From positions 105,368 through 169,367 of the forward strand of contig DATION010000002.1 of the NCBI GenBank assembly GCA_035473115.1: 64,000 nt of DNA, read 5' to 3'. The translations under genes and the position numbers were made by a program. This document shows positions 32,772-61,042 of the stretch, in pieces. Position 1 is the stretch's first letter. The number at the start of each line of letters is the position of its first letter. A model generated the notes under the pieces. The model was not told the DNA's origin. It worked only from the letters and a program-made list of their open reading frames with translations, and did not search any database. This DNA comes from Candidatus Udaeobacter sp. Its GTDB lineage: Bacteria > Patescibacteriota > Patescibacteriia > Magasanikbacterales > GWA2-37-8.

Positions 32772-32814
32772 AGATTTTTAGTTTGTCATCCCTAGCATGG
32801 AACGACAATATAAG

Positions 32815-44725: not shown

Positions 44726-44809
44726 TTGTCATCCCGAGCGAGCCGTAGCGACGAGGGATCTTTACTTTAAATGAATAGATTCCTCACGTAAGGTTCGGAA
44801 TGACAGTTG
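44726..44809. repeat. Palindromic repeat element copy A (TGTCATYCYGA terminal inverted repeats)
   Basis: Roughly 84-bp imperfect palindrome: TTGTCATCCCGAGCG...GAGGGATC...GATTCCTC...TTCGGAATGACA. It supplies the last 8 codons and the stop codon of thiI. Confidence 0.7.
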
Positions 44810-46019
44810 AGTGAATTAAACCATTTTTAGCAATATACGGTATGACTTCTGTTTTTGCAATTACCGCTTCATCGATTAATTTTTCGTACTTTAAAACCTC
44901 TTTTAATCTGGATTTTGTGGCTGGATGTCTGGCTACAAACAGGCTGCAGCAATCCTCGTATGGGCGAGCGGAAATTTCCATTGTGCCAATTTTTCTAGCC
45001 AAATCTATTATATCTTTTTTGTTTGTTCCTATCAACGGAGAAAGCTTTAACAAATTAGATGCTTCAGCGATAACAGCCATATTTTCCAGAGTCTGAGAAG
45101 CTACCTGCCCCAGACTATCGCCATTTACCAAAGCTAAAAACTTGTTCTCTCGAGCAACTTTTTCGGCAATTTTATTAAAAATGCGGCGAGTAACTATCAT
45201 GCGGTAAGGCGCCGGAATTTTCATAATTATCTGTTTCTGCACATTGGCAAACGGCACCATAAACAGTTTGATTTCCGGCTGATAACTAGACAAAACTTTA
45301 GCTAAATCAAAAATTTTCTCGCTTACCTCTTCGGTAACTTGGGTTTGATTTTGAAAATGAATTAAATTTACTTCGCCGCCGCGGCACATTATTTTGTAAG
45401 CTGCCACTGGGCTGTCGATACCGCCAGATAACAAAGCCAAAACTTTACCCGAGGTAGAAGTTGGCAAACCGCCAATCGTATTTATAGTATTACCATAAAT
45501 ACAGGCGTCATTTCTGCCAATAGCAATATGAATATCTAGTTCTGCGTTATTTAGAGAAACTTGCCAATTATATTTTAAACGCACATACTCCCCTATCTCT
45601 TTTTCGATTTCAAGTGAAGATAGAGGAAAATTTTTATAAGATCGTTCTGCGGAAATACGGAAAGTTCGTTTGTCATTCTGAGCGGAACAAAGTGGAGTCG
45701 AAGAATCCCTTGTACTTTGGTTTAAGGGATCTCTCGACTGCGCTCGAGATGACAGTTGAATAATTTGATCTATCCCATCTTTAATATCTTGAATTGTGCT
45801 TTTTGTTTTTAGCGCTTCGGCATAATTAGCAAAACCTGGAATAAGAACCAATTGCTGTAACTGCTCTGCTTGAATATTTTCCAGCCACAAACCACTTTCT
45901 ATCCTCGAAACTTTTACTCCTGATAATAAATTTTCTAAGTTATTTATTAACTTACGATAAAAAATAGGCTGATTTGAGCCTTTCAAAAATATCTCATCAA
46001 TATGAATAATTACATTCAT
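44784..46019 (-). CDS. thiI: tRNA 4-thiouridine synthase ThiI carrying a 30-codon in-frame palindromic-element insertion
   Basis: N-terminal ferredoxin-like and THUMP domains and the PP-loop SGGIDSPVAAY. The segment RAQSRDPLNQSTRDSSTPLCSAQNDKRTF is encoded by repeat copy B. Confidence 0.8.
   Translation of the reverse strand: MNVIIHIDEIFLKGSNQPIFYRKLINNLENLLSGVKVSRIESGLWLENIQAEQLQQLVLIPGFANYAEALKTKSTIQDIKDGIDQIIQLSSRAQSRDPLNQSTRDSSTPLCSAQNDKRTFRISAERSYKNFPLSSLEIEKEIGEYVRLKYNWQVSLNNAELDIHIAIGRNDACIYGNTINTIGGLPTSTSGKVLALLSGGIDSPVAAYKIMCRGGEVNLIHFQNQTQVTEEVSEKIFDLAKVLSSYQPEIKLFMVPFANVQKQIIMKIPAPYRMIVTRRIFNKIAEKVARENKFLALVNGDSLGQVASQTLENMAVIAEASNLLKLSPLIGTNKKDIIDLARKIGTMEISARPYEDCCSLFVARHPATKSRLKEVLKYEKLIDEAVIAKTEVIPYIAKNGLIHSTVIPNLT
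45669..45758. repeat. Palindromic repeat element copy B, inserted in frame within thiI
   Basis: TGTCATTCTGAGCG...GAGTCGAAGAATCCCTT...AAGGGATCTCTCGACTG...CGCTCGAGATGACA. 90 bp, equal to 30 codons. Confidence 0.75.
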
Positions 46020-46023
46020 GATT

Positions 46024-47103
46024 TTATTTTATTACCAAAGATTGTCGTATTTCTTCGGCGTTTCGCAGCTGTCCGCAAGCAGCAGCAATATCTTGGCCTT
46101 GAGAATAACGCACGGTAGAAGTAAAACCGGCATTCATAAGCGAAGTATGCCAGTGTTCAATATTTTCTTTTGGCGACTCATCAAAATCCGAAGGCATGGC
46201 CACGGTAGAAATATTGTTATATGGAATTAAATTTATTTTTATCTTTCCTAATTTTGAAGCTAGAGTCATCAGCGCTTTTAAATCTTTTGGTCCGTCATTA
46301 ACTTTACCAAGCATAATATATTCCAAACCAATAAAATGGGCTCGGCTAGGGTGCATCTGGTGATACTTTTTGGCCCAGCCAACCAAGTATTCCAAAAATC
46401 CTTTTTGGTGCGAAGGCATGATGGCAGCGCGAGTTTCTTCGATGGCGCTATGCAAAGATAAAGCAAAACGGACTGGTGGAAAATCTTTGTCTACAGCCAA
46501 TTTATCCATCATCACTGGAATACCACAGGTAGATAAAGTAATTTTGCTTGGACCAAGAGTGGTATATTTTAAAATAATATTTAAAGCAGTTTTGATGTTT
46601 TCGTAATTGAGCAGCGGTTCACCCTGGCCCATGATTACCATATTATCTATTTCGCCCAAATTCCTTTCTGCCAAAAATCTTTGCCAAAAACGATATTGAT
46701 CCACAACTTCTTCGGGAGTTAAATTTCGAGAAAATCCAGCTTTGCCAGTAGCACAAAAAGCGCATTTCATGCCGCAGCCGACTTGCGAAGAAATACAGAT
46801 AGTATAACGATCGCGACCACCCGCAGCGGTTAAGTTTTTTCTGCCCATTAATACAGCTTCAATTAATCGGTCATCAGATAATTTCAATAAAGCTTTTTTG
46901 GTATTATCTTTTTTACTCTCATGCATCACATGCAAGCGCAGGGATAGCCAAGGTTTATCTTTCAATTTTTCTCGCAATTCTTTTGGTAAAGTGGTAATTT
47001 TTTCGTAACTATCTACTTTCGCGTCAAACCAGGCTCGGAACACTTGGTCCTGCCTGAATTTCTTTTCCGTAGATAAAATTTGTAATAAGTCTATTTCTGC
47101 CAT
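46024..47103 (-). CDS. rlmN: 23S rRNA (adenine2503-C2)-methyltransferase RlmN (radical SAM)
   Basis: CGMKCAFCATG radical-SAM motif and the RlmN/Cfr family pattern. The start was set at the ATG at 47103; the ORF-track start at 47142 is a TTG. Confidence 0.8.
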   Translation of the reverse strand: MAEIDLLQILSTEKKFRQDQVFRAWFDAKVDSYEKITTLPKELREKLKDKPWLSLRLHVMHESKKDNTKKALLKLSDDRLIEAVLMGRKNLTAAGGRDRYTICISSQVGCGMKCAFCATGKAGFSRNLTPEEVVDQYRFWQRFLAERNLGEIDNMVIMGQGEPLLNYENIKTALNIILKYTTLGPSKITLSTCGIPVMMDKLAVDKDFPPVRFALSLHSAIEETRAAIMPSHQKGFLEYLVGWAKKYHQMHPSRAHFIGLEYIMLGKVNDGPKDLKALMTLASKLGKIKINLIPYNNISTVAMPSDFDESPKENIEHWHTSLMNAGFTSTVRYSQGQDIAAACGQLRNAEEIRQSLVIK

Positions 47104-47146
47104 ATTCGGGCTAAGTATGCCACAGTTTTGCTGTTTTGGCAATATG

Positions 47147-47175
47147 TTGACGGGAATTTTTTTTCGAAGTATATT
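47147..47175 (+). promoter_or_regulatory. Putative promoter of GC-rich cassette 2 (TTGACG-N17-TATATT)
   Basis: Sequence match. An AAAGGAG Shine-Dalgarno site lies 6 nt before the ATG at 47220. Confidence 0.35.
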
Positions 47176-47219
47176 TAAGAAGCGAAAAGTGCTTCATCAA
47201 CAAATTAAAGGAGAATTTA

Positions 47220-47450
47220 ATGGCCACAAGCCATAAAGTCGAGAGTTTCGACTTCGAGGCAGCAGAGCCTGGAGCTGAACAAGATTCTCACACTCCTGAA
47301 CAACACCTAAACCTGACAATCTTGTGCGACCTTGCAGATCGCAAGGCACCTATAGCTGAAATCAGGGTCTATACAGATCCCAGAGCAGCGCATATTTCCC
47401 ATTGCGAAAAGTGCCAAAATGCCCTAGGCTTCTACAAAATTTCGTTTTAG
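47220..47450 (+). CDS. GC-rich orphan small ORF 2 (76 aa, acidic)
   Basis: About 48 % GC. Strong Shine-Dalgarno site. An 8-bp stem hairpin (AGTATGCT...AGCATACT) overlaps the stop. No recognised family. Confidence 0.3.
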   Translation: MATSHKVESFDFEAAEPGAEQDSHTPEQHLNLTILCDLADRKAPIAEIRVYTDPRAAHISHCEKCQNALGFYKISF

Positions 47451-47525
47451 TATGCTGCTAACTAAGCATACTTGGAGGTTTGCGGCTCCTGAACAGGTAA
47501 AACTGATTTAGGGGCTTTTTCATTT

Positions 47526-49760
47526 TTACTCTAAAGCTCTTAAAATCTTTTCTTTAATATCTACTGAAGTCATCCCAGCTAACTCATATACCTCAGCCAC
47601 ATTACCGGATTTTAAATAATGGTTTATACCCAAAGCTTTTTTAGAATAATCCGCTGGTAACATAAATGGATACAAAAATCCTGGCCAACCATTATGCAAA
47701 GTAATTACTAATTCCCTTTCTTCATCTGATAAAATACTTTTCGCTTTAGTTGGATTAGTTTTTTGTAAATCTTCAAATAATTCCGGGGAAGTAACAGCTA
47801 TAATTTTTATATCTAATCCTTGCTTTTCCAGTTCAGGCAAAACTTCTAAAGTATTTAACAAAATTTGCATACCGCAAATTGCTAAAACCGTCTTTTTGCC
47901 TTTACCAGAGAATTGTTTATAAACATAAGCGCCATTATTGGCTTCTATGGCCGCTGGCACTTCAGCACGCTTTATTACCGGCTGTTCCGGCCGGTAAAGA
48001 GACAGAATAATTGGCTCACCTTTTTCTAAAGCGCCAAACAGCATTTCTATAGTTTCATTGGCATCTGTTGGTTTATATACTTTTATTCCCGGCAAAGCAT
48101 TATAAAGAGACATCCAATACATTCCTTGGTGGGTTGGACCATCTTCGCCAGTTTCCGGGCCGTCGTGGGCAGCCAAAGCAATAAAAAAGCCTTTGGTTTC
48201 GGGATTAAGTTGATTACCAATTACCGCCAAGCGAATCGCATTGCCCATCATATTGGTAAAAACGGCAAAAGTACCAAAGACCGAAACTGGTTTGTATCCG
48301 CCCGGCAAAATATCTTGCGTCAGTCCGGCGCCCATCATGGCCATATTTTGTTCAGCAATGCCATAGCGAATACCGCGGCCCAGTGGATTATTTTTGGAAA
48401 TCAATCCATAAACTTCTTCGGCAGAATTGGTATAAACAGATTTAGCCAAATCTCCGGCTCCAGCATAAAAAAAGGCGGTCTGTTTCATATACCAAGCCAT
48501 CCAGGCTTGCACAGCTTTGCGAGTAGCTACTTTTTCGCCTTCGGCAAAAACTAATTCCGGCGGCAAAACTTTTGGCCGTTTTATAGCTAGAGGATCAACC
48601 ATTGGTCGGCCGCGCAAAGCTTTTTTCATTTTTTCTACCAAAATTGATTCTGGCACAATTTTCTGCGCGCCGACTTCTAATCTTTCCAAAATATATTTTT
48701 CATCTTCTGGATTAATTTGCGCCAAAACAGTTTGAATATCCGGCAATACTTTCCCCGGTTCGCCAGCAATATTAAAGCCTAATTTTTTCATTATATTTAC
48801 ATAATCATCGTGCTTGGCCAGAGTACTGTGGGCAGCGGCAGTATTTTCAGTCTTGCCATAACTTTTAGCTTTTAAAGTATGACAGATAACTACCGTCGGC
48901 GCGCCATTGGCAAACCCTTGCGCAGCCAACTGATAGGCATAAACCATTTCCAAAACATTATGCCCGTTGGTTTCTATAACATTCCAACCCAAACCCAGCC
49001 AATGATTAATATATGGCGAAGCCACAACTTCTTCTATTTCATCATCGATGCCAAAATGATTATAATCTAAACTGACAATTAAATTTTTTAAGCCGTTGGT
49101 AGCAATGATATTTCGCGCTTCATAGGTCATACCTTCTTCGCTTTCGGCATCGCCCATAAATACCCAAGTTTTGGTATCCAAGCCGCAAGACTGGTGTACC
49201 ATAGCCATTCCGCCAGCTACAGCAAACCCGTGCCCCAACGGGCCGGTAGTAAAATCAGAATATGGATATTGGGCTTCGGCATGGCCTTGCGGGCCATCAG
49301 CATGACGAAAACGAATCAGGTCTTCAGGCATGACTGCTTTTACTACTGCTTCGCCAAATTGGCGGCCAGCCCGTTTTAAAACTTCGTAATATAAGGCTTG
49401 TCCGGCAAAAAGCAGATCAGCGCAATGGCCTGAACTCCAAATTAATCTGTCTCGACCAGGATTTTTGGGGTTGGTTGGATCAAAGGCCATTACTCCACTT
49501 AGTGTCATGGCCAAAAATTGCTCCACCTTGCTGCTGCTGCCCGGATGACCGGATTGTCCGGCTTCGACAGCAGCAAAAATAAGGCCGCGAATAATTTTGG
49601 CTAGTTTGTCTAATCTAGGAACATCTATGCCGTCTATGGAAGCCAGATCTAAATCTTCGATATTTAAATACTGCCCGCTCTGGACAGAATATTGCAAAAG
49701 GTTTTTTTCTTTCTTTTTAAAATCTGCCATTCCTTTTTTGTCTAGGAGGTTGTAGGGCAT
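47526..49760 (-). CDS. tkt: Transketolase (long form, 744 aa)
   Basis: TPP-binding N-terminal domain (GHPGSS..), pyrimidine-binding domain and C-terminal domain. Confidence 0.85.
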   Translation of the reverse strand: MPYNLLDKKGMADFKKKEKNLLQYSVQSGQYLNIEDLDLASIDGIDVPRLDKLAKIIRGLIFAAVEAGQSGHPGSSSKVEQFLAMTLSGVMAFDPTNPKNPGRDRLIWSSGHCADLLFAGQALYYEVLKRAGRQFGEAVVKAVMPEDLIRFRHADGPQGHAEAQYPYSDFTTGPLGHGFAVAGGMAMVHQSCGLDTKTWVFMGDAESEEGMTYEARNIIATNGLKNLIVSLDYNHFGIDDEIEEVVASPYINHWLGLGWNVIETNGHNVLEMVYAYQLAAQGFANGAPTVVICHTLKAKSYGKTENTAAAHSTLAKHDDYVNIMKKLGFNIAGEPGKVLPDIQTVLAQINPEDEKYILERLEVGAQKIVPESILVEKMKKALRGRPMVDPLAIKRPKVLPPELVFAEGEKVATRKAVQAWMAWYMKQTAFFYAGAGDLAKSVYTNSAEEVYGLISKNNPLGRGIRYGIAEQNMAMMGAGLTQDILPGGYKPVSVFGTFAVFTNMMGNAIRLAVIGNQLNPETKGFFIALAAHDGPETGEDGPTHQGMYWMSLYNALPGIKVYKPTDANETIEMLFGALEKGEPIILSLYRPEQPVIKRAEVPAAIEANNGAYVYKQFSGKGKKTVLAICGMQILLNTLEVLPELEKQGLDIKIIAVTSPELFEDLQKTNPTKAKSILSDEERELVITLHNGWPGFLYPFMLPADYSKKALGINHYLKSGNVAEVYELAGMTSVDIKEKILRALE

Positions 49761-49780
49761 ACTGGAAATTGAGTTATGTA

Positions 49781-51145
49781 CTATATTTCAAACTCTCTAA
49801 AATATTTTCTAAATCTATGATTATTCATCTCCATTCTATGAAAATATTTATCCGAAAACCCATCTTTATTTGAATGTTTTAGCAGCACCATATAAGAATC
49901 ATTCATTCTTTCAAAAAAACGTATCAAAAAACTCATCTGCTCTTTTGTTAATTTTCCACTATCCACAGTTTCCATAAATCTTCTTTGCATTCGTTCTTGT
50001 AGCATAAACAACTCTTCAAGCATCATCGGATGAGGTCTTTCTTCATGAGAAAAATGTTCTATAAAGTGCAGAACTCGTTCCTGGTTTCTATTAAATTCAA
50101 TAAAAAAATCATCATCTAAATTTAACTGTTTAACAAGATGCTGTAACTCTTCGCCTAACATTCCTTGCTGCATGATAAACTCATGAAATAAAGGATGTTT
50201 AAAATCTCTTGAGTGTAAGATCTTATGAACAACATAATTTCTTTCTTCTAAAGATTTAACTCTTTTGACATCTTGGAGGATTTTTTTATCAACTATTTGT
50301 TTGTAATACTCACCAGCAAGTTCTAAAAATTTTTCTGGGTCATACATATGAAAATCTACACCCGCCTTATCTTGAATTTCTTTTTTTAATTCATGCCTAG
50401 GCCCTATAACAGTTCCAGATTGTATCCACCACCAATCTTCTTTTTTATCTCTAGTAATAAAAATTATCGGTTTTTTTAACTCATTGGCCTTATCAATAAT
50501 TTGGTACCATAAAATCAAATCACCATATTCACGTTCATTATCTTTTGATGCATCTTTATAACCAGGAGGAACGTCATTTGAATATCTTTCTTTTCCTTCT
50601 TTATATATTTCGTCAAGTTTTTCCTTAAGGTATTCTTCACCAATACTATCTTTAAAAATCTTATTTAATTCACCTAAAATATTATCTTTATTAACCCAAT
50701 CTGGATGAGATTTTTCATTTTTATTAATACTGAGAGTAATCTTTTTTAAACAGCTATCTAATTCATTGCTAATTTCTTTAAGGTCTAAAAATGGATGTTC
50801 CTTGTGATACTTATCCTCAATTTTCTTTTGAGCATCCTTAATAGAGGTGTCTAAAATAGACCTTATTTTAGAGTAAGAATTTTTTAAATCAGCTATTTGA
50901 ATTATTCTTCTTTTATGAAACTCTAAGCCCACTTGATGCGGGATCCATATTCTATTTTCATCTTTAATTTTTTTAAGAATACCAATATATTTATCCGAGG
51001 TAGTATTGTTATACCTGTACAAGTCAAGCAAAACATTCGTGTCAAACACAAATACACACTCCTGCCATATTTTTTTTATTTCAGCATCAGAATACTTATA
51101 AAATTCTTTAAACTTATTCTTCATACGGCTTTTCATTAATAACAT
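49781..51145 (-). CDS. Orphan protein with an N-terminal PIN-like nuclease domain and a roughly 280-aa helical C-terminal region
   Basis: The VFVFDTNVLLDLYRY start is typical of PIN domains. Later ...IFITRD... provides further acidic residues. The C-terminal half is not recognisable. Confidence 0.5.
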   Translation of the reverse strand: MLLMKSRMKNKFKEFYKYSDAEIKKIWQECVFVFDTNVLLDLYRYNNTTSDKYIGILKKIKDENRIWIPHQVGLEFHKRRIIQIADLKNSYSKIRSILDTSIKDAQKKIEDKYHKEHPFLDLKEISNELDSCLKKITLSINKNEKSHPDWVNKDNILGELNKIFKDSIGEEYLKEKLDEIYKEGKERYSNDVPPGYKDASKDNEREYGDLILWYQIIDKANELKKPIIFITRDKKEDWWWIQSGTVIGPRHELKKEIQDKAGVDFHMYDPEKFLELAGEYYKQIVDKKILQDVKRVKSLEERNYVVHKILHSRDFKHPLFHEFIMQQGMLGEELQHLVKQLNLDDDFFIEFNRNQERVLHFIEHFSHEERPHPMMLEELFMLQERMQRRFMETVDSGKLTKEQMSFLIRFFERMNDSYMVLLKHSNKDGFSDKYFHRMEMNNHRFRKYFREFEI

Positions 51146-51240
51146 ACTTACATTATACCAATTTCCCTACACCTAAACAAGTTTCCTCTATCTCAAAATA
51201 AATGCTACAATTTAAATAGCTTAATTTTAAATAAAAAAAT

Positions 51241-51588
51241 ATGGACCAACAAAACCCAACTACCCAATCAGCAACACCCCAACCACAATCACCAAAACAC
51301 AACACTTTGATGGCTGTAGTAGCTTATCTTTTGTTTTTTATTCCCCTGCTTACCGATGCCAAAAATGATCCTTTTGTTAAATTTCATGTAAAGCAAGGAT
51401 TAGTATTTTTTATTTCTTGCTTGGCTGCCGCCATAATTATTCGGCTGCCAATCATCGGTTGGCTCTTGATGTTCCCAATAAATATTTTTCTTTTTGTAAT
51501 TTGGCTAATTGGGATTTTGAACGCTCTAAGCGGTAAACAAAAACTGCTCCCAGTGATCGGCAAGTACGGAGAGCAGTTTGAGTTATAA
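51241..51588 (+). CDS. DUF4870-like small membrane protein
   Basis: Pro/Gln-rich N-terminus, then the DPFVKFHVKQGLVF motif typical of DUF4870, plus two transmembrane helices. Confidence 0.5.
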   Translation: MDQQNPTTQSATPQPQSPKHNTLMAVVAYLLFFIPLLTDAKNDPFVKFHVKQGLVFFISCLAAAIIIRLPIIGWLLMFPINIFLFVIWLIGILNALSGKQKLLPVIGKYGEQFEL

Positions 51589-51598
51589 ACTTCTTTTT

Positions 51599-52030
51599 TT
51601 ATTTAATTGCTTGTTGAAGTGCTTGTTCTAATTTTTGCGGCTCATCGGTGCCAATCCGGTATATTTTTCCATTCTTCATAATAATTTCTACGGCATCAAA
51701 ACCGGAAACATTAAAAATCCAGGTTGTTGGATTTAATTTTAATCTTATCCCCCAGCCATAATACCATTTATTTTTTACCGCTTTAGCTGTTGCTATTTCT
51801 TTAAGAACAAATTTTTTGCTAAATAAACCAAAGGCTATATGAAGATGACTGTCATCTATTGTTACAGTAAGCGAAATAAACGAAACTAAAATTAGCAAAA
51901 CAATAAGCATCACGCTAGTAAATCCCGAAAAATCAAAGGCTCTTTGTAGTAAAAAAAATAGATAAAGCGCTGCTATGCCAATGGCGGCAAACAATATTAC
52001 CTTTCCGATCTGGGTGTGCTTGTAGAGCAT
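51599..52030 (-). CDS. Hypothetical membrane protein (two N-terminal transmembrane helices plus a small soluble domain)
   Basis: Hydrophobic N-terminal segments. No family recognised. Confidence 0.4.
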   Translation of the reverse strand: MLYKHTQIGKVILFAAIGIAALYLFFLLQRAFDFSGFTSVMLIVLLILVSFISLTVTIDDSHLHIAFGLFSKKFVLKEIATAKAVKNKWYYGWGIRLKLNPTTWIFNVSGFDAVEIIMKNGKIYRIGTDEPQKLEQALQQAIK

Positions 52031-52107
52031 AAAAAAATTAGATAAATAACTATATTATTATACCAATTTTGGCTTTTTAAGACAAACAAATTCTCTACCC
52101 TCGAGGC

Positions 52108-52136
52108 TTTACAAAAAGGCCTTTTTGTGGTAGACT
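52108..52136 (+). promoter_or_regulatory. Putative promoter of GC-rich cassette 3 (TTTACA-N17-TAGACT)
   Basis: Sequence match. A GGAGGG Shine-Dalgarno site lies 5 nt before the ATG at 52183. Confidence 0.35.
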
Positions 52137-52182
52137 ATTCGCACTCTGAACAACAAACCAAACCAACCTGCGGAGGGCTAGC

Positions 52183-52479
52183 ATGAGCCAAAATCTTGAT
52201 CTGGGCGTACGCCTCGATCTTGCGGCCATGCTTTCCCAGCGCGCCGCAACAAACGATCCCAAGAGCCGAATCAGCTCAAGGGAGATAGCTCGCGAAGAAG
52301 CTCGCGAGTATGACAAATTGAGGAATTCTGCAGAACGAGCCAGCATGGATCTTTATGACAGCCAGGCAACGTTTGCAGATCCGGAACATCGAGAACTATT
52401 GAGAAAAAAACAAAGGGCAGACTATGCCTTAGACGTTTTTCTCAGAAACCTAATCTCGAAAAAGCGGCCTGGTAAATAG
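52183..52479 (+). CDS. GC-rich orphan small ORF 3 (98 aa, charged, predicted helical)
   Basis: About 52 % GC. Strong Shine-Dalgarno site and own promoter. It is followed by hairpins and a terminator. No recognised family. Confidence 0.4.
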   Translation: MSQNLDLGVRLDLAAMLSQRAATNDPKSRISSREIAREEAREYDKLRNSAERASMDLYDSQATFADPEHRELLRKKQRADYALDVFLRNLISKKRPGK

Positions 52480-52505
52480 CGAGAGCAATCTCGCTACCGT
52501 CGGCG

Positions 52506-52550
52506 GCCCGTTGCCTGGAGACCAAAATCCAGCACGGGCCTTTGTTATTT
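52506..52550 (+). terminator. Hairpin terminator of cassette 3
   Basis: GGCCCGT...ACGGGCC stem (7 bp) followed by TTTGTTATTT. An additional AGCGAG-AGCAAT-CTCGCT hairpin lies at 52478-52495. Confidence 0.5.
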
Positions 52551-52569
52551 ATAAACACAACAGTTTTGC

Positions 52570-53205: not shown

Positions 53206-53208
53206 ACT

Positions 53209-55506: not shown

Positions 55507-55510
55507 GGTA

Positions 55511-55870
55511 TTATTCTTCCATTCTGTATTCTTTGTCGGCTCGGCCCATTTTTTTATCTTTGGATTGCACGCGCTGCTTTAATTTATATTTTTTTAATTC
55601 TGCTTCCAGATAATCACGGACTTTGTCTATCGCTTTATACAAATTTTCTTCCTGTTTGGCGGCAAAAATATTCTTGCCCGGTACATCCAGCTTGAATTCG
55701 GCGTTAAACATATCGCCTTTGCGGTGGTGCTGACTATTAACACCGACGATTATCTCTGTTCTGATGATGCGATTATTATAAAATTTATTTAAAGATTCGG
55801 CTTTTTTACTGGCATAATCTTTGATGGCTTGGGTAAGTTCAATGCCTCTGCCCGTAATTTGTATTTCCAT
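55511..55870 (-). CDS. hpf: Ribosome hibernation-promoting factor (HPF/RaiA family)
   Basis: MEIQITGRGIELTQAIKDYA... sigma-54-modulation-protein fold signature. 119 aa. Confidence 0.8.
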   Translation of the reverse strand: MEIQITGRGIELTQAIKDYASKKAESLNKFYNNRIIRTEIIVGVNSQHHRKGDMFNAEFKLDVPGKNIFAAKQEENLYKAIDKVRDYLEAELKKYKLKQRVQSKDKKMGRADKEYRMEE

Positions 55871-55892
55871 AAAAAAATTAATTTAAAATATT

Positions 55893-56840
55893 TTATTTTA
55901 CAATTTGCACTTCCGGCTCCAGTTCCACGCCAAATTTATTATATACCCTTTGTTTGATCTCTTCAACCAAAGTCAATACATCAATTTGAGTCGCATTATG
56001 ATAATTTATCACATAATTACCATGCTCATCAGAAATTTTGGCGCCTCCGGAAGACAAACCGCGCAACCCCAGCTGTTCAGTCATCCAACCGACCGGCACT
56101 GAACCTCTCTGCAAAAATATTTCCGGCAAATCTTTGGTGTCTCCGGGCCATTTATGCAGTTTTAAATTCTTAAAAAAGCTGCCAGCTGAAGGAAACGGCG
56201 TATGTTTGCGCTGTTTTAAGTAAGCTTGCATGTTTTCCATTATTTTTTGCTTGTCCCCCGGTTCCAAATAAATTGAAGCGCGTAAAATTATATCTTTATT
56301 ATGTTTAAAAATAGTATCACGGTAAGCAAATTTGCAATCTTCATTTTTTAACCTGACAACTTCACCGTCACGCCAAATATCAACCCACTGGATAACTGTA
56401 GATATATCTTTGCCCATTGCGCCGGCATTGCCTCGTATAGCTCCGCCAAACGTACCCGGCACGCCCACAGCCCAATCCATACCAGCCAAGCTGTTTTTGG
56501 CCGCTAAATTCACTACCATGCCCAAAACTGTGCCTGCATCTATCTCAATATCAAAGCCAATTCCTTTGGGTGTAATTTTTGGAGCGTCATTAGTAGCAAT
56601 TTTTATTACCAATCCGTCATAACCATTATCATTCATCAGCAAATTTGATCCGCCGCTTAAAACAAAATAATCAGCGCCTTCTTTTGCCAAAAAATTGAGA
56701 AGTTTAACCAGAAGATCTGTCTTGCGGACAATAATAAAAAGTTTGGCCGGACCGCCAATTTTAAAAGTGGTATGTTTGGATAAAAGTTCGTTTATCTTAA
56801 CATCGCCAAACTCCTTTAATTTGTTATAAAAGTCATCCAT
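55893..56840 (-). CDS. murB: UDP-N-acetylenolpyruvoylglucosamine reductase
   Basis: FAD-binding domain (FKIGGPAKLF, SGGSNLL) and a C-terminal MurB domain. Confidence 0.85.
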   Translation of the reverse strand: MDDFYNKLKEFGDVKINELLSKHTTFKIGGPAKLFIIVRKTDLLVKLLNFLAKEGADYFVLSGGSNLLMNDNGYDGLVIKIATNDAPKITPKGIGFDIEIDAGTVLGMVVNLAAKNSLAGMDWAVGVPGTFGGAIRGNAGAMGKDISTVIQWVDIWRDGEVVRLKNEDCKFAYRDTIFKHNKDIILRASIYLEPGDKQKIMENMQAYLKQRKHTPFPSAGSFFKNLKLHKWPGDTKDLPEIFLQRGSVPVGWMTEQLGLRGLSSGGAKISDEHGNYVINYHNATQIDVLTLVEEIKQRVYNKFGVELEPEVQIVK

Positions 56841-56933
56841 AAATTAAGTAGATTTATTCTTGCTTTTTATTGCTTTTTCCAGTATGATAAGCACCATGAC
56901 AAGTATGAATATACCATAGTATATAGCAAACTT

Positions 56934-58169
56934 ATGCCGATTTCAAATAACCTATTAACAATACTTGCTCAGCACCTAGTATTTTATGTCTGCCGAGACT
57001 TGGAGCGAGCCATTGGAATTGACTTATCTTTGCCAAATTATCGAATAATTACCAACTACAACGAATTTTCGGCCAAACTTGCCCGGCAGTATGCAAATAT
57101 TACTTTAATTAAAGCAGAAAAACAACTTGATACCGCCAGTTTGCTAAAGCATAAACAAACACAAAATTTAATTAAAAAAAACGATTTTGTCCTGGTATTC
57201 AAAAATAACGTCATTATCGAAACTGAATGCAAAAAAAACGGCTGGAAATTATTAAACCCCGATTCAAAACTTGCCGATAAAGTTGAAGGAAAAATATCGC
57301 AAGTTAAATGGCTGGGAAGCTTGGCTAAATATCTGCCGCCTTGCCAAATCACTACTTGCGGTAAAATTAAATGGAACAAAAAAACTTTTGTTTTGCAGTT
57401 CAATCATTCTCACACCGGCAGCGGCACATTTTTTATAAGTTCAAATAAACAGTTAAACGATCTAAAAGCCAAATTTTTTAATCGAGAAGCGCGCGTAATG
57501 CCATTTATTAACGGACCGGTATTTACCAATAACAATATAGTTTGGGGAAATAAAATTTTAATCGGCAATATAAGTTTTCAGATCACCGGCCTATCCCCTT
57601 TTACGGAAAATAAGTTTGCCACTATCGGCAATGACTGGGCTTTACCCCATCAGCTATTAAACGCTAAACAGATTAAGCAATATAAACAAATAGCAACTGA
57701 AGTCGGAAAAAAATTAAGCCGCGACGGTTGGAAAGGTTTGTACGGCATTGATATAATTATCGACAAAAAAACCGGCCGATTATATTTACTGGAAATAAAT
57801 GCCCGTCAACCAGCCTCTACCACTTTTGAATCACAGTTGCAAAAATTAAATACAATTGATGACAAAGCAAAAATTTCTACCTTTGAAGCGCACTTGGCAA
57901 GCTTGTTAGAAGTTAAACCAAATAATTACCAACTTACTTCTATAAACAACGGCGCGCAAATAATCCAAAAAGTTACAACCAAAATAACCAAAATAAAATT
58001 ACCGCAAATTAATAATAAATCTACCGCGCAAATCATCAGTTACAATAATGATTCCCTTGAATCCGATCTGTTCCGAATACAGACTAGCGCTGGTCTAATG
58101 CAAACAGTCAATACATTTAACAAATTCGGCAAAGAAATCCGTTCGGCTATGCTGGCGCTTAAAAAATAG
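56934..58169 (+). CDS. ATP-grasp domain protein of unknown specificity
   Basis: C-terminal GLYGIDIIIDKKTGRLYLLEINARQ resembles the ATP-grasp catalytic loop. The N-terminal region is not recognised. Confidence 0.5.
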   Translation: MPISNNLLTILAQHLVFYVCRDLERAIGIDLSLPNYRIITNYNEFSAKLARQYANITLIKAEKQLDTASLLKHKQTQNLIKKNDFVLVFKNNVIIETECKKNGWKLLNPDSKLADKVEGKISQVKWLGSLAKYLPPCQITTCGKIKWNKKTFVLQFNHSHTGSGTFFISSNKQLNDLKAKFFNREARVMPFINGPVFTNNNIVWGNKILIGNISFQITGLSPFTENKFATIGNDWALPHQLLNAKQIKQYKQIATEVGKKLSRDGWKGLYGIDIIIDKKTGRLYLLEINARQPASTTFESQLQKLNTIDDKAKISTFEAHLASLLEVKPNNYQLTSINNGAQIIQKVTTKITKIKLPQINNKSTAQIISYNNDSLESDLFRIQTSAGLMQTVNTFNKFGKEIRSAMLALKK

Positions 58170-58170
58170 T

Positions 58171-58980
58171 ATGACTAAAACCTTATCTCTTACAGCCGAA
58201 AAAACAATTCATGATTACCTTAATCTGCCTTTCACCGGCATCTACGGCGTACGCTGCCCTTATTTTAATAATTCCAAACTCGGTCAGCGAGGACAGTTAA
58301 GAGTTTTAATCGGCAAAGGCTCACCGGAAGAAATTGTGGAAGAAGCAAAGATAATTTCCACCCAATACCACAAAGATATTTTTGATAAGAACGGAGTTTT
58401 TAACGCGCATACCGATCACCCGGCCGAGCATGAACAAATAGAATGCATACGACAATTTTTGATAGAAAATAATTTGGGCATAGATTGCTCCGGCTTTGTT
58501 ACTCATGTTCTGCAAAAACATTTTCAAGAAACAAATAATATTAATTTGGTCAAAAAACTTTTTATTACCTCAAAGAAAAATTTCTGCCGCTGGCTTATCA
58601 GCCGCCTGCGTCCGATTGAGCAAATTGATGTAAATGTCTATGCTAATGACAAAAATACCATAGTAATAAACGATTTACGGGCAATTGAACCTGGTGATTT
58701 GGTTATTATGTTAAAAACCGGACCAAGAAAAACCTATAACCACATTTTGCTTATAGAAGAAGTAGATGGAAATAAAATTAAATACGCGCAATCCCGCGCT
58801 TGGCCCAGCGATGGCCGCTACGGACATGGCGTAGCCCAAGGTTTTATTACAATTAATAATCCGGAAAAAAATTTGCTGGAACAAACCTGGGAAGAAAAAA
58901 ATAAACTAAATGAAGAAAACGAAACTTATTTAGAAGCCAAACAGGCTGAAGTTTTAGAAATTAGAAGAATTAAATTTTAA
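58171..58980 (+). CDS. NlpC/P60-like (papain-fold) putative cysteine peptidase/amidase
   Basis: The GIDCSGFV motif is typical of the NlpC/P60 catalytic Cys, and a downstream His (NHILLIEE) is present. Translationally coupled to the ATP-grasp gene. Confidence 0.45.
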   Translation: MTKTLSLTAEKTIHDYLNLPFTGIYGVRCPYFNNSKLGQRGQLRVLIGKGSPEEIVEEAKIISTQYHKDIFDKNGVFNAHTDHPAEHEQIECIRQFLIENNLGIDCSGFVTHVLQKHFQETNNINLVKKLFITSKKNFCRWLISRLRPIEQIDVNVYANDKNTIVINDLRAIEPGDLVIMLKTGPRKTYNHILLIEEVDGNKIKYAQSRAWPSDGRYGHGVAQGFITINNPEKNLLEQTWEEKNKLNEENETYLEAKQAEVLEIRRIKF

Positions 58981-59061
58981 TTGTCATTCTGAACAAAGTG
59001 AAGAATCCCTGTCTCAAACACCGAATGGACAGAGATCCTTCGTTCCACTCAGGATGACAAA
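58981..59061. repeat. Palindromic repeat element copy C (intergenic, NlpC/P60-like gene to mraY)
   Basis: TTGTCATTCTGAAC...GTGAAGAATCCCTGTC...GACAGAGATCCTTCG...CACTCAGGATGACAA. It starts immediately after the stop codon at 58980. Confidence 0.7.
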
Positions 59062-59073
59062 CTAAACAATTTT

Positions 59074-60189
59074 ATGAATTTACAATTAATTCAACAAGCT
59101 CTAACTTATTTAATTTTTTCCGCTGTCGGAGCGTTTGTTTGGTCGCCACTGCTTATCAAATTTTTATATAAATACAACATCACTCGCCGCGATGAATTTG
59201 ATTTTACCCTTAAAGGTGATCGCAATAAAAAAATTGGCACACCAATTATGGGCGGACTGCTTGTGATAATTACGGTAACGTTAATTACTGTGTTCTTTAA
59301 CTGGAACCGAGAAAGTACTTATGTGCCTATGGGTGTGATGGGGATTGCAGCGCTGCTGGGAGCGGCCGATGATTTATTAAACATTTTTGGCAAAAAACGC
59401 CGCGAACGAAAAATCTCGCATATTATAAATTTAATAAAACTGCACAAACAATGGTATATGCGTTTGTGGTATATCTTTATTTTGCCTTGGGAAATTTTTA
59501 GAAAACTGGCTTCCATGCTTGGCTCTCACCCTGGCCGAGGTATTCAAGTTCACGAAAAACTATTGTTTCAATTCTTGGCCGGAGCGGTTACGGCTTGGTG
59601 GATATATTTTAAATTGGGAATTTTTTGGCACTCTTTATGGATGCCGTTTGACGGCCAACCATTTATTGGCTGGTGGATAATCCCAATTGTCATTTTTTTC
59701 GTAATGTTTACCGCTAATGCCGTGAATTTTGCTGATGGTTTGGATGGTTTGGCTGGCGGATCACTGATCATAACTTTCTTGGGCTTAATGATAATCAGCT
59801 GGACTGAAGGCCGAGTCTCTTTTACTATTCTTAATGCTACAGTTGTTGGTGCTTTAATGACTTACACTTATTTTAATGTAAAGCCAGCCAGGTTTCAGAT
59901 GGGAGATGTAGGTTCCTTGGGGTTAGGCGCATTGTTAGCTATTAACGCCATTGCCGTAAACCGCACGATGCTTTTGCCGTTTCTCGGTTTTATTTTTTAT
60001 ATAGAAATAATTTCTGTACTTATCCAAGTTTTCTGTCGCCGTTTGCTGGGAAAAAGATTTTTTAAGATGGCACCGCTACATCATCATTTTGAATTCCATG
60101 GCTGGAGCGAAGAAAAAATCGTGATGCGTTTTTGGCTAGTGCACGCGTTTTTTGTAATTCTAGCAATTTGGATGAGTTTGTATAAATAA
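59074..60189 (+). CDS. mraY: Phospho-N-acetylmuramoyl-pentapeptide transferase
   Basis: NAVNFADGLDGLA and PLHHHFE motifs. Polytopic membrane protein. Confidence 0.9.
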   Translation: MNLQLIQQALTYLIFSAVGAFVWSPLLIKFLYKYNITRRDEFDFTLKGDRNKKIGTPIMGGLLVIITVTLITVFFNWNRESTYVPMGVMGIAALLGAADDLLNIFGKKRRERKISHIINLIKLHKQWYMRLWYIFILPWEIFRKLASMLGSHPGRGIQVHEKLLFQFLAGAVTAWWIYFKLGIFWHSLWMPFDGQPFIGWWIIPIVIFFVMFTANAVNFADGLDGLAGGSLIITFLGLMIISWTEGRVSFTILNATVVGALMTYTYFNVKPARFQMGDVGSLGLGALLAINAIAVNRTMLLPFLGFIFYIEIISVLIQVFCRRLLGKRFFKMAPLHHHFEFHGWSEEKIVMRFWLVHAFFVILAIWMSLYK

Positions 60190-60198
60190 TTAAAAAAG

Positions 60199-60304
60199 CA
60201 TTATATAATTTGTTAATTTTTGCAGTGGTCATCGCACCTCCGGGTAGGCGTCCCGACAAAGTCGGGACAGTTTGACCACAAAAAAATTAACAAATTATAT
60301 AATG
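60199..60304. repeat. Nested palindrome with GC-rich core between mraY and the downstream gene
   Basis: 24-bp AT-rich inverted arms (CATTATATAATTTGTTAATTTTTG / CAAAAAAATTAACAAATTATATAATG) flank a GC-rich core that holds two further hairpins (GTGGTCA...TGACCAC and GTCCCGAC-AAA-GTCGGGAC). Confidence 0.6.
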
Positions 60305-61042
60305 ATCCATGATATGTACCTAAGCTGGCAAGAGAAAACTTTAACTGAATTTAATGACACAGATATAGAAAATGCCTATGACCAAGGCTTTGTTTTTACG
60401 CGTATTGGTAGAGGAGTAATGAATCAAACGAGAAGCTTACGAATCGATTTAGCCAAATTTGAATTATCTTCGGAAAACCGCCGTATCTTGAATAAAACTG
60501 AAGAGTTGAATTTATCTGTAGAGCCAATCCCCTATGCCGAATACGAATGGACAATCCATAAAATGGGCAAGGAATTTTACGAAACAAAGTTTGGAGATAA
60601 AGTTTTTAGCGCGCAAAAAATAAAAGAGCTGATCACAGACAAGGAAAAAAGTAATTTTAATAAATTATTTGTTTACGCTGTCATCCCGACCGCAGTGGAG
60701 GGATCCCTTAAACCACAAAGTATAAGGGATTCTTCGACTCCGCTCCGCTCCGCTCAGAATGACAAAGCGACGCCGATTGGTTACTGTATTACTTTAGAAA
60801 CCAAAAATATTTTACACTACTGTTACCCTTTTTATGACCTGGCTTTAAACTTTCCTAACTTAGGGATGGGCATGATGCTCAAAGCAATTGTTTGGGCAAA
60901 GGAAAACAATAAAAAATATATTTATTTAGGCTCATTCCAACGGCCAACTGACACTTACAAACTGCAATTTGCTGGATTAGAATGGTTTGAAGGAACAGAA
61001 TGGAAAAATGATTTAGAAGAATTAAAATTAATAAACTTATAA
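60302..61042 (+). CDS. Bpt/ATE-family aminoacyl-tRNA--protein transferase-like protein (GNAT fold) carrying an in-frame palindromic-element insertion
   Basis: QGF...RxG, FELSSENRRIL and YLGSFQ...TYKLQF resemble Bpt/ATE1 motifs (NGFRRSG, LSRSQKRLL, YLGY...NYKVRF). The start was chosen at ATG 60302; the ORF-track start at 60272 is a TTG inside the upstream palindrome. The segment IPTAVEGSLKPQSIRDSSTPLRSAQNDKATP comes from repeat copy D. Confidence 0.45.
   Translation: MIHDMYLSWQEKTLTEFNDTDIENAYDQGFVFTRIGRGVMNQTRSLRIDLAKFELSSENRRILNKTEELNLSVEPIPYAEYEWTIHKMGKEFYETKFGDKVFSAQKIKELITDKEKSNFNKLFVYAVIPTAVEGSLKPQSIRDSSTPLRSAQNDKATPIGYCITLETKNILHYCYPFYDLALNFPNLGMGMMLKAIVWAKENNKKYIYLGSFQRPTDTYKLQFAGLEWFEGTEWKNDLEELKLINL
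60678..60760. repeat. Palindromic repeat element copy D, inserted in frame in the Bpt-like gene
   Basis: TGTCATCCCGACCGC...GTGGAGGGATCCCTTA...TAAGGGATTCTTCGAC...GCTCAGAATGACA. Confidence 0.75.

What the first reader, a model, noticed from the sequence alone, without database searches (positions are those of the whole stretch)
44726..60760. An RPE-like palindromic element family inserted in frame into thiI and a Bpt-like gene
Four 80-90-bp imperfect palindromes share conserved termini (TTGTCATYCYGAnCG ... CGCTCAGRATGACAA) and a conserved core (GAAGAATCCCTT / AAGGGATYCTTCGA). They lie at 44726-44809, 45669-45758, 58981-59061 and 60678-60760. Two sit inside ORFs as exact multiples of 3 and leave the reading frames intact. 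In ThiI the insert lies between the THUMP and PP-loop regions, and in the Bpt-like gene it lies mid-protein. Both host proteins gain the same peptide motif, RDSSTPL[CR]SAQNDK. Copy A also supplies the last 8 codons and the stop of thiI, and copy C begins right after a stop codon. This behaviour matches Rickettsia palindromic elements, which are known for in-frame insertion into coding genes, but here it occurs in a CPR-like genome. A possible short remnant, TTTGTCATCCCTAGCATGGAACGACAA, lies at 32782-32808 between atpD and atpC.
Basis: partly seen in the sequence, partly recalled or inferred. Interest (0 to 1): 0.72.

Follow-up and report, generated by a model that had tools for sequence, protein, structure and literature searches.

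The report
Tagged palindromic repeats inserted inside genes
Four (in fact five) short hairpin-forming DNA repeats in this small-genome bacterium belong to a known repeat family that also includes some Rickettsia elements, and three of them sit in frame inside housekeeping genes, where they add about 20-30 amino acids to loops that two structure models and the alignments place outside the conserved fold.

Summary
Four 78-86-bp elements share the termini TGTCATYCYGA / TCRGRATGACA. Two are in frame: one in ThiI, one in a Bpt-like arginyltransferase. Most orthologues lack the extra ~30 residues. Both inserts are low-confidence coil in AlphaFold2 models.

The elements are not simple hairpins. Each arm is its own tagged palindrome (TGTC-AT-YCY-GA...GA-RGR-AT). 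In 173 related elements the variable bases pair within an arm in 97-99% of cases, but between arms in only 54-88%. There is no target-site duplication.

This anatomy matches head-to-head dimers of CGTC/TGTC-tagged REPs (Di Nocera 2013). That superfamily includes Rickettsia RPE-4 and RPE-6 and Neisseria dRS3, and its in-frame dimers encoding 20-30 residues are already documented. "RPE-like" is therefore right, and can be made more precise.

I found a fifth, canonical CGTC-type dimer in frame in a Mur ligase (62139-62208).

Three details need correcting:
- The ThiI insert lies before the THUMP core, not between THUMP and the PP-loop.
- Copy D ends at 60764, not 60760.
- The "remnant" at 32782 is no better than chance.

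The same elements occur in many phyla and in viral contigs. What mobilises them is unknown. Verdict: a new member of a known kind, of moderate interest.

The parts
44727..44805 (.). Copy A. A head-to-head dimer with arms 44727-44759 (+, TGTC-ATCCC...GGGAT) and 44779-44805 (-, TGTC-ATTCC...GGAAT) and a 19-nt spacer. It lies between thiI and the exonuclease gene and supplies the last codons (TVIPNLT) and the stop of thiI.
   Evidence: It is absent from the orthologous site in L200, whose ThiI is 86% identical. None of its 6 frames is open.
45671..45754 (.). Copy B. A head-to-head dimer with arms 45671-45706 (+, ATTCT...AGAAT) and 45729-45754 (-, ATCTC...GAGAT) and a 22-nt spacer. It is read on the minus strand as ThiI residues 88-117 (QLSSRAQSRDPLNQSTRDSSTPLCSAQNDK).
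58982..59059 (.). Copy C. A head-to-head dimer with arms 58982-59006 (+, ATTCT...AGAAT) and 59035-59059 (-, ATCCT...AGGAT) and a 28-nt spacer. It is intergenic, one base after the stop of ORF 58171-58980 and 14 nt before mraY.
   Evidence: No run of T follows it, and the terminator scan does not flag it.
60679..60764 (.). Copy D. A head-to-head dimer with arms 60679-60704 (+, ATCCC...GGGAT) and 60729-60764 (-, ATTCT...AGAAT) and a 24-nt spacer. It is read on the plus strand inside the Bpt-like gene (VIPTAVEGSLKPQSIRDSSTPLRSAQND).
62139..62208 (.). A canonical CGTC-type dimer with arms ATTCCCCGC-TTGG-GCGGGGAA at 62139-62160 and 62182-62203. The right arm carries CGTCA on the minus strand (62204-62208). 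It is in frame in the Mur-ligase ORF (IIPRLGGEDLDDQPTPTPPKRGID).
   Evidence: (I5).
44784..46019 (-). thiI (tRNA 4-thiouridine synthase, 411 aa), host of copy B. Its 3' end is remodelled by copy A.
   Evidence: Pfam ThiI_fer, THUMP and ThiI domains. NCBIfam TIGR00342. Orthologues without the insert are 374-381 aa.
60302..61042 (+). Bpt-like arginyl/leucyl-tRNA-protein transferase homologue (246 aa from the ATG at 60302), host of copy D.
   Evidence: Pfam ATE_C. NCBIfam arginyltransferase models match, but below their cut-offs.
61680..63140 (+). Mur ligase family protein (Mpl/MurC-like, 486 aa), host of the fifth element.

Best explanation
The elements are non-autonomous repeats of the CGTC/TGTC-tagged REP superfamily. 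Each is a head-to-head dimer, comparable to a REPIN.

**Anatomy.** Each arm is a tagged palindrome: TGTC, then a 5-bp stem that begins with AT (AT-YCY / RGR-AT), then a GA...GA pair of mismatches around a variable inner part. Two such arms face each other with the tags outside. They are separated by a 19-28-nt spacer that can itself form a small hairpin.

**How they spread (inferred).** Copies insert without duplicating the target. This points to a trans-acting enzyme that reads the tagged hairpin in single-stranded DNA, in the style of a HUH/Y1 enzyme. No such enzyme has been identified for this superfamily.

**Why some sit inside genes.** Copies land anywhere. Inside genes only those survive that are in frame, free of stop codons and located in a tolerant surface loop. 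In this window that gives the 30-residue loops in ThiI and the Bpt-like protein, a roughly 20-residue loop in a Mur ligase, and a remodelled C-terminus of ThiI. The inserted peptides are most likely passengers with no function of their own.

**Shown versus inferred.** Shown: the anatomy, pairing within arms, absence of target duplication, in-frame insertion relative to orthologues, and the wide distribution. Inferred: the single-strand mobilisation mechanism and the neutrality of the peptides.
For: **Arms.** All eight arms in the window are TGTC + AT + NNN...N'N'N' + AT with perfect 5-bp local stems. All four dimers are heterodimers.

**Pairing within arms.** In 173 related elements the variable positions pair within an arm in 97-99% of cases, and between arms in 54-88%. 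Orthologous copies of B show the compensatory change ATCTC/GAGAT <-> ATCCC/GGGAT.

**Boundary and target.** The tag base is T in 217 of 240 arms that were not selected by the search pattern. Conservation stops at the tag, and direct repeats flanking the element are no more frequent than chance.

**Match to the literature.** PMC3733652 describes CGTC often changed to TGTC, stems starting with AT, head-to-head dimers with tags outside, spacers of 20-100 bp with stem-loops, intragenic dimers encoding 20-30 aa, RPE-6 = CGTC-1 and RPE-4 = CGTC-4, and no dedicated transposase.

**Canonical units nearby.** Canonical units (8-9-bp stem, 4-nt loop) occur in the same window and in a Magasanikbacteria relative (L202).

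**Inserts are lineage-specific.**. In the AlphaFold2 models they are low-confidence coil flanked by confident secondary structure.

**Frames.** About 2 of 6 frames are open per element, close to the 1.7 of shuffled sequences. In-frame survival therefore looks like a filter rather than a design.
Against: **Stem and loop.** The four TGTC elements do not have the 8-9-bp stem and 4-5-nt loop given for CGTC families 1-4. They have 5 Watson-Crick pairs, GA/GA, and a 7-19-nt interior. They are a variant, not a textbook member.

**Consensus not seen.** I could not read the consensus sequences in Figure 2 of the paper. The match rests on its text and on its table of encoded peptides.

**No enzyme.**
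- The window has no Y1-transposase-like ORF.
- Such ORFs appear in only 3 of about 200 related loci, and none is flanked on both sides by the arms.
- No longer element with a gene between two termini was seen.

**Cross-phylum identity.** REPINs are usually lineage-specific, whereas these arms are nearly identical across phyla. Simple vertical inheritance does not explain this.

**Energy versus covariation.** Nearest-neighbour folding prefers the single long hairpin in 153 of 224 elements. The local-arm structure therefore rests on covariation, not on energy.
Confidence: 0.78

Rival explanations
1. A classical MITE: a deletion derivative of a DDE-type insertion sequence, moved through its terminal inverted repeats and leaving a target-site duplication.
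For: The size is 78-86 bp, the termini are inverted, and the copies are dispersed. The ends TG...CA resemble those of many DDE elements (own knowledge).
Against: In 222 elements, flanking direct repeats are no more frequent than chance. Each arm is itself a palindrome with covariation inside the arm, which terminal inverted repeats do not need. In about 1.5 Mb of related loci, no pair of termini encloses a gene.
Confidence: 0.07
2. A functional structured RNA, such as an mRNA-stabilising hairpin, an attenuator or a small RNA, kept for its effect on expression rather than as selfish DNA.
For: The hairpins are very stable (z from -3.7 to -6.4). Copies A and C lie directly after coding regions, where REPs typically sit (PMC3733652). 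The arm hairpin is maintained by a compensatory change in orthologous copies of B.
Against: There is no Rfam match beyond meaningless hits to microRNA precursors far below threshold. No run of T follows any copy and none is called terminator-like. Copies occur in both orientations and inside three coding regions. The same sequence appears next to unrelated genes across phyla and in viral contigs.
Confidence: 0.1
3. The 30-residue segment is a selected protein module: a peptide with its own function shared by ThiI and the Bpt-like protein. On this view the DNA palindrome is incidental.
For: The same motif RDSSTPL[CR]SAQNDK is read in both proteins. The ThiI insert is retained in relatives down to about 70% identity.
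Against: The same DNA occurs outside genes and in the opposite orientation (copies A and C). The palindrome and the arm stems are preserved at the DNA level. Both inserts are low-confidence coil in the models. Many equally close orthologues lack the segment, and others carry unrelated repeats in the same loop. The peptides match no protein family.
Confidence: 0.04
4. An assembly or binning artefact: repeat-induced chimeras placed foreign, G+C-richer sequence into a metagenome-assembled genome.
For: The elements are 45-53% G+C in a window of 36.9% G+C. One independent assembly breaks at copy A. The taxonomic label of the record looks wrong.
Against: Copy B is present at the same codon position in contigs assembled from other samples (L001 in this genome, L200, L201 and L202 in relatives), with flanks that have diverged as expected. 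The reading frames stay open and the host proteins are otherwise colinear with their orthologues.
Confidence: 0.01

Closest known systems
CGTC/TGTC-tagged REP superfamily, families CGTC-1 to CGTC-4 (Di Nocera, De Gregorio and Rocco 2013, BMC Genomics 14:522, PMC3733652)
   Same: [quoted passage not shown]
- A stem that begins with complementary A and T.
- Mostly head-to-head dimers with the tags outside.
- Spacers of 20-100 bp that often carry small stem-loops.
- Heterodimers are common.
- Intragenic dimers encode 20-30 residues in housekeeping proteins.
- No dedicated transposase is known.

The fifth element in the window, and units in relative L202, have the canonical 8-9-bp stem and 4-nt loop.
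   Different: The four TGTC elements have a shorter Watson-Crick stem (5 bp), extended by GA...GA and a variable interior of 7-19 nt. The tag is T in about 90% of arms. The paper reports five phyla. Here the elements also appear in a CPR-like genome, in contigs labelled Acidobacteriota, Chloroflexota, Gemmatimonadota, Verrucomicrobiota and clostridial, among other groups, and in viral contigs.
Rickettsia palindromic elements (RPE; Ogata et al. 2000). RPE-6 and RPE-4 were equated with CGTC-1 and CGTC-4 by Di Nocera 2013.
   Same: Palindromic repeats inserted in frame in housekeeping genes, adding short peptides. The encoded peptides have the same build (VIP... at one end...ND or ...MT at the other). 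A ThiI relative (P0022) carries VIPNLIGNP...LDSRFSGNDK, close to the R. conorii ...LDSRFRGND.
   Different: The host lineage is different, and the arm interior differs in sequence. The inserted peptides match no NCBIfam family at E up to 10, so no RPE-type domain model was matched. The longer RPE-1 type is a separate element.
REPIN / RAYT systems (Bertels and Rainey 2011; Nunvar 2010; Quentin et al. 2018, PMC6006769)
   Same: Two inverted REP hairpins form the mobile unit. Each arm has a tag followed by a palindrome. Arm variants covary. REPs inserted in frame within genes are reported there too.
   Different: The tag is TGTC, not GT[AG]G. No associated single-copy Y1 transposase was found. 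The sequence is nearly the same across phyla rather than lineage-specific.
Neisseria dRS3 repeats (= CGTC-1 in Di Nocera 2013)
   Same: A tagged ATTCCC...GGGAAT palindrome of the same superfamily. The consensus ATTCCC-N8-GGGAAT is from my own recall.
   Different: dRS3 units are mostly found in large intergenic clusters. They are not described as in-frame dimers in housekeeping genes.

Membership tests
CGTC/TGTC-tagged REP superfamily | Unpaired tetranucleotide tag CGTC (or TGTC/CCTC) at one end of the palindrome | tested here: met
   All 8 arms carry TGTC. The fifth element carries CGTC on its right arm. The tag base is T in 217 of 240 unselected arms in related loci.
CGTC/TGTC-tagged REP superfamily | Stem begins with complementary A and T in the first and second positions | tested here: met
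   All 8 arms have AT-NNN...N'N'N'-AT with a perfect 5-bp complement.
CGTC/TGTC-tagged REP superfamily | Stem of 8-9 bp and loop of 4-5 nt | tested here: not met
   Copies A-D have 5 Watson-Crick pairs, then GA...GA and a 7-19-nt interior. The feature is met only by the fifth element (9-bp stem, TTGG loop) and by units in L202. Copies A-D are therefore a variant family.
CGTC/TGTC-tagged REP superfamily | Short unpaired tail after the stem (consensus CCA) | tested here: inconclusive
   The stems are followed by CCC or CTT. This is similar to the consensus but not the same.
CGTC/TGTC-tagged REP superfamily | Mostly head-to-head dimers with tags outside; spacers with complementary ends or stem-loops | tested here: met
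   All four elements have the tags outside. The spacers are 19-28 nt, just under to within the 20-100 bp reported for most dimers. The spacer ends pair in the predicted folds, e.g. CCCTT...AAGGG in B and D.
CGTC/TGTC-tagged REP superfamily | Multi-copy and dispersed; intragenic dimers encode 20-30 residues | tested here: met
   There are 5 elements in 64 kb. Three are in frame and add about 20-30 residues.
Rickettsia palindromic elements | In-frame insertion into conserved protein genes, absent from orthologues | tested here: met
Rickettsia palindromic elements | Sequence match to an RPE-type protein-domain model | tested here: not met
   No NCBIfam family matched the two inserted peptides at E up to 10. 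I did not check which RPE models the library holds.
REPIN/RAYT | GT[AG]G tag at the foot of the hairpin | tested here: not met
   The tag is TGTC.
REPIN/RAYT | A cognate Y1 (HUH) transposase gene flanked by the repeats | tested here: inconclusive
   None is in the window. Three Y1-like ORFs occur in about 200 related loci, and none is flanked on both sides. The rest of the source genome was not available.
MITE (derived from a DDE insertion sequence) | Target-site duplication flanking the element | tested here: not met
   Direct repeats of 2-9 bp occur at chance frequency in 222 elements.
MITE (derived from a DDE insertion sequence) | A parent insertion sequence with the same termini | tested here: not met
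   No pair of termini more than 200 bp apart was found in the fetched loci. This was a limited sample.

The most novel reading that the evidence does not exclude
The TGTC-tagged double-hairpin elements form one almost sequence-invariant family that crosses many bacterial phyla, CPR genomes and viral contigs. Vertical, lineage-bound inheritance of the REPIN kind cannot produce this pattern. It would imply a conserved, still unidentified enzyme, or a phage-borne route, that recognises the hairpin TGTC-AT-YCY-GA...GA-RGR-AT. Small CPR genomes that carry few transposases would then be a minimal setting in which to find that enzyme.
Probability: 0.25. Interest if true: 0.62.

Novelty: new member of a known kind. 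Interest (0 to 1): 0.42.

Why it matters
**Classification.** This is a clean, checkable case of selfish palindromic DNA being written into essential proteins: a tRNA thiolase, an aminoacyl-tRNA-protein transferase and a Mur ligase. The host genome is strongly reduced. The result ties the "RPE" behaviour known from Rickettsia to a defined, much wider repeat superfamily.

**Annotation.** Such inserts break assemblies. They also create spurious "hypothetical proteins" and inflate protein-family diversity in metagenomes.

**Biology.** The same loops are occupied by different members of the superfamily in different lineages. The arms are nearly identical across phyla and occur in viral contigs. Both points sharpen the open question of what moves CGTC-type REPs, since no transposase has been assigned to them.

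Tried and rejected
- **Rfam.** Gathering thresholds over the whole window gave no hit. Permissive E-values around the copies gave only matches to eukaryotic microRNA precursors far below threshold. I rejected these as generic hairpin matches.
- **Literature search by sequence words.** It returned only primer sequences. A search for palindromic elements in CPR found nothing relevant.
- **NCBIfam scan of the inserted peptides.** No family matched.
- **Search for an autonomous parent element.** Pairs of termini more than 150 bp apart gave only slightly longer elements.
- **Recurrent neighbouring genes.** Clustering ORFs from about 200 loci gave clusters that recur only among the viral contigs. 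Their sequences looked like phage structural proteins, though they were not annotated. It gave no transposase.
- **Search for Y1 transposases.** I used RAYT/TIRYT sequences taken from the supplement of PMC3733652. There were three hits, none in the window and none in a REPtron-like arrangement.
- **Test for ORF-friendliness.** The number of open frames is close to that of shuffled sequence, so I rejected this as an evolved property.
- **Thermodynamic support for the four-way fold.** The minimum-energy fold is usually the single long hairpin. I kept the local-arm reading on covariation only.
- **Plasmid BLAST.** There were two unannotated Hymenobacter hits.
- **The remnant at 32782.** Rejected as indistinguishable from chance.

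Full report

Yes. Measured from tag to tag they are A 44727-44805, B 45671-45754, C 58982-59059 and D 60679-60764.

- The terminus TGTCATYCYGA, allowing one mismatch, occurs 11 times in the window against 2.3 expected. No shuffle out of 100 reached 11, and eight of the hits are the eight arms of the four elements.
- B and D are 87% identical in opposite orientation. The other pairs are 62-72% identical.
- All four fold into hairpins that are much more stable than shuffled controls, with z-scores from -3.7 to -6.4.
- The elements are 45-53% G+C in a window of 36.9% G+C.

**2. The host genes and the in-frame claim**

*ThiI.* ORF 44784-46019 (minus strand) is ThiI. It matches Pfam ThiI_fer, THUMP and ThiI, and NCBIfam TIGR00342 above its cut-off. 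Copy B is read as residues 88-117, QLSSRAQSRDPLNQSTRDSSTPLCSAQNDK. The many close orthologues that lack an insert are 374-381 residues long, with a short linker in its place. Four relatives (P0002, P0003, P0012, P0021) carry an orthologous insert.

*Bpt-like protein.* ORF 60302-61042 is a homologue of arginyl/leucyl-tRNA-protein transferases (Pfam ATE_C). Copy D is read as VIPTAVEGSLKPQSIRDSSTPLRSAQND. Most homologues lack this segment.

*Structure models.* In the AlphaFold2 models both inserts are low-confidence coil between confident secondary-structure elements.
- In ThiI, residues 93-115 have pLDDT below 50. They lie between helix 76-90 and strand 119-126.
- In the Bpt-like protein, roughly residues 128-156 have pLDDT around 54. 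They lie between strands 121-127 and 157-166, in a model with mean pLDDT 90.

*Copies A and C.*
- Copy A replaces the end of thiI. It supplies TVIPNLT and the stop codon.
- Copy A is absent from the same site in L200, the closest relative available, where thiI is followed after 6 nt by the exonuclease gene. A is therefore younger than B.
- Copy C begins one base after the stop codon of ORF 58171-58980.

- The ThiI insert lies before the THUMP core, not between THUMP and the PP-loop domain.
- Copy D ends at 60764, not 60760.
- The proposed remnant at 32782-32808 is one of three 1-mismatch hits, where 2.3 hits in all are expected by chance.

**3. What the element is**

The long hairpin is not the conserved unit. 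Each arm is itself a palindrome. I used a definition that does not assume the family consensus: any NGTC, then AT plus three bases, then within 30 nt the exact complement. With it the window holds exactly eight arms, all tagged TGTC, and they are the eight arms of A-D. Shuffled windows give 2.3.

All four elements are heterodimers, meaning the two arms have different stems. Examples are ATTCT/AGAAT with ATCTC/GAGAT in B. Every arm interior begins and ends with GA.

To test this on independent copies I scanned public collections for the two termini.
- In 173 non-redundant elements, the variable Y/R positions form Watson-Crick pairs within an arm in 97-99% of cases. Between arms the figure is only 54-88%.
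- The orthologous copies of B in four genomes show a compensatory change inside one arm, ATCTC...GAGAT versus ATCCC...GGGAT.
- Energy models still prefer the single long hairpin in 153 of 224 elements. The local-arm structure therefore rests on covariation.
- Conservation stops at the tag, with only a weak pyrimidine preference one base outside it.
- Flanking direct repeats of 2-9 bp are no more frequent than chance in 222 elements.
- In arms that were not selected by my search pattern, the tag base is T in 217 of 240.

**4. Comparison with what is known**

Di Nocera, De Gregorio and Rocco (2013, PMC3733652) sorted REP elements into GTAG-tagged and CGTC-tagged superfamilies. For the CGTC group they report the following:
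[quoted passage not shown] - Spacers are mostly 20-100 bp and often carry stem-loops.
- Heterodimers are common.
- No dedicated transposase is apparent.

They equate R. conorii RPE-6 and RPE-4 with CGTC-1 and CGTC-4, and Neisseria dRS3 with CGTC-1. Their table of intragenic elements lists dimers of 20-30 residues such as VIPAKAGISLPFDEQSGERSGKKREIPAFAGMT and SFPRKRES...DSRFRGND. These have the same build as VIPTAVEGS...RSAQNDK here. A ThiI relative (P0022) even carries VIPNLIGNP...LDSRFSGNDK in the same loop.

At 62139-62208 there are two arms ATTCCCCGC-TTGG-GCGGGGAA, and the right arm is tagged CGTCA on the minus strand. The element lies in frame in a Mur ligase as IIPRLGGEDLDDQPTPTPPKRGID. 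Close orthologues have only 3-6 residues in that loop. One relative, P0297, has a B/D-type TGTC element there: VIPTEMEGSL..IRDSSTPLRSAQND. A Magasanikbacteria relative, L202, carries canonical TGTC-ATTCCCGC-CACA-GCGGGAAT units.

I therefore file A-D as a variant family within the CGTC/TGTC-tagged REP superfamily. The one defining feature they do not meet is the 8-9-bp stem with a 4-5-nt loop. They have five Watson-Crick pairs extended by GA...GA and a variable interior.

They are not GTAG-type REPINs, because the tag differs. They are not classical MITEs, because there is no target duplication and no parent element. The inserted peptides match no NCBIfam or Pfam family. Rfam has nothing for them.

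**5. How it most likely works**

*Shown.* The elements are a tagged double-hairpin repeat, and each arm's fold is maintained by covariation. They insert without duplicating the target. Several host proteins carry an insert in a permissive loop, and the same loops hold different members of the superfamily, sometimes nested, in different lineages.

*Inferred.* Copies are moved by a trans-acting enzyme that recognises the tagged hairpin in single-stranded DNA, as RAYT or IS200-type Y1 enzymes do for GTAG REPs (PMC6006769). Selection then removes every intragenic copy that is out of frame, contains a stop codon, or disturbs the fold.

The elements have about 2 open frames of 6, close to the 1.7 of shuffled sequence. 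In-frame survival therefore looks like a filter, not a built-in property. Copy A has no open frame, and it sits at a gene end, where it supplies a stop codon.

I found no enzyme. There is no Y1-like ORF in the window. Such ORFs appear in three of about 200 related loci, and none is flanked on both sides by arms.

A regulatory RNA role for the intergenic copies cannot be excluded. Nothing specific supports it, and there is no terminator-like tail.

**6. Distribution**

- The termini pattern occurs in genome contigs whose record titles name Bacteroidota genera, Acidobacteriota, Chloroflexota, several Proteobacteria, clostridial groups, Gemmatimonadales, Verrucomicrobiota, Planctomycetales and Moranbacteria.
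- It also occurs in viral contigs, sometimes as tandem arrays.
- The specific right arm of B and D (GGGATTCTTCGACTCC...GCTCAGAATGACA) occurs in at least 120 metagenome contigs of 36-67% G+C, with a median of 55%.
- The window's source is a CPR-like genome. The nearest ThiI and Mur-ligase relatives are labelled Magasanikbacteria, Parcubacteria or Patescibacteria, although the record itself is labelled Candidatus Udaeobacter.
- This near-identity across phyla is unlike lineage-bound REPINs. It is the one aspect that remains unexplained.

**7. Verdict**

It can be made more precise: these are head-to-head dimers of TGTC-tagged REPs, in the same superfamily as RPE-4 and RPE-6. In-frame REP dimers in housekeeping genes were described in 2000 and 2013, so this is a new member of a known kind, with a variant arm, in a new host group. 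It is of moderate interest. The open question is what mobilises the elements, and why their sequence is so constant across phyla and phages.

Noticed in passing
window 62139-62208: A fifth palindromic repeat, of the canonical CGTC type (9-bp stems ATTCCCCGC/GCGGGGAA, TTGG loops, CGTCA tag on the right arm). It is in frame in the Mur-ligase ORF 61680-63140. Close orthologues lack it, and others carry different repeats in the same loop.
   Followed up: yes
window 60199-60304: A 106-nt hairpin with perfect 23-nt arms (CATTATATAATTTGTTAATTTTT / its complement) around a G+C-rich core that holds the small hairpin GTCCCGACAAAGTCGGGAC. It lies between the mraY stop and the start of the Bpt-like gene, and the right arm contains the ATG at 60302. 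The fold has z = -11. It is unique in the window and has no exact match in viral contigs. Its nature is unknown.
   Followed up: partly
ThiI relatives P0004, P0005, P0008, P0022, P0024, P0026 (alignment A2, columns about 115-165): The same ThiI loop carries other repeat-derived peptides in other lineages: PLPRGSEEG...PPLPLLGKEG, VIPNLIGNP...DSRFSGNDK and HPEFISGYNEMPKQVQHDK. Some sit inside what remains of the B-type element (VQLSSR... kept at the left). This suggests nested insertion or turnover at a single site.
   Followed up: partly
L031 8545-8970; L023 1111-2065; L068 247-475: Viral contigs carry the same TGTC elements, some as tandem arrays of 4-5 copies about 88 nt apart. Phages may carry the family between hosts.
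   Followed up: no
whole window (source record): The NCBI name attached to the identical ThiI and Mur-ligase proteins is 'Candidatus Udaeobacter sp.'. The nearest relatives of both proteins are labelled Magasanikbacteria, Parcubacteria or Patescibacteria, and the window is 36.9% G+C. The label may reflect a binning or naming error.
   Followed up: no
L001 (Logan contig SRR9656165_923322), end of contig at window about 44730: An independent assembly of the same thiI stops inside copy A. The repeats break short-read assemblies.
   Followed up: no
L036 3747-4364; L121 2843-3974; L011 1170-1817: Y1 (HUH) transposase-like ORFs lie near TGTC elements in three unrelated contigs. In L121 one arm lies 68 nt downstream of the ORF, which appears split into fragments. 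None is flanked on both sides.
   Followed up: partly
L036 5668-5760 and 7221-7360: Some arms carry a long perfect inner helix between the two GA dinucleotides (for example GA-GGCCCGAC...GTCGGGCC-GA). This shows that the GA...GA positions frame a variable extension of the stem.
   Followed up: no
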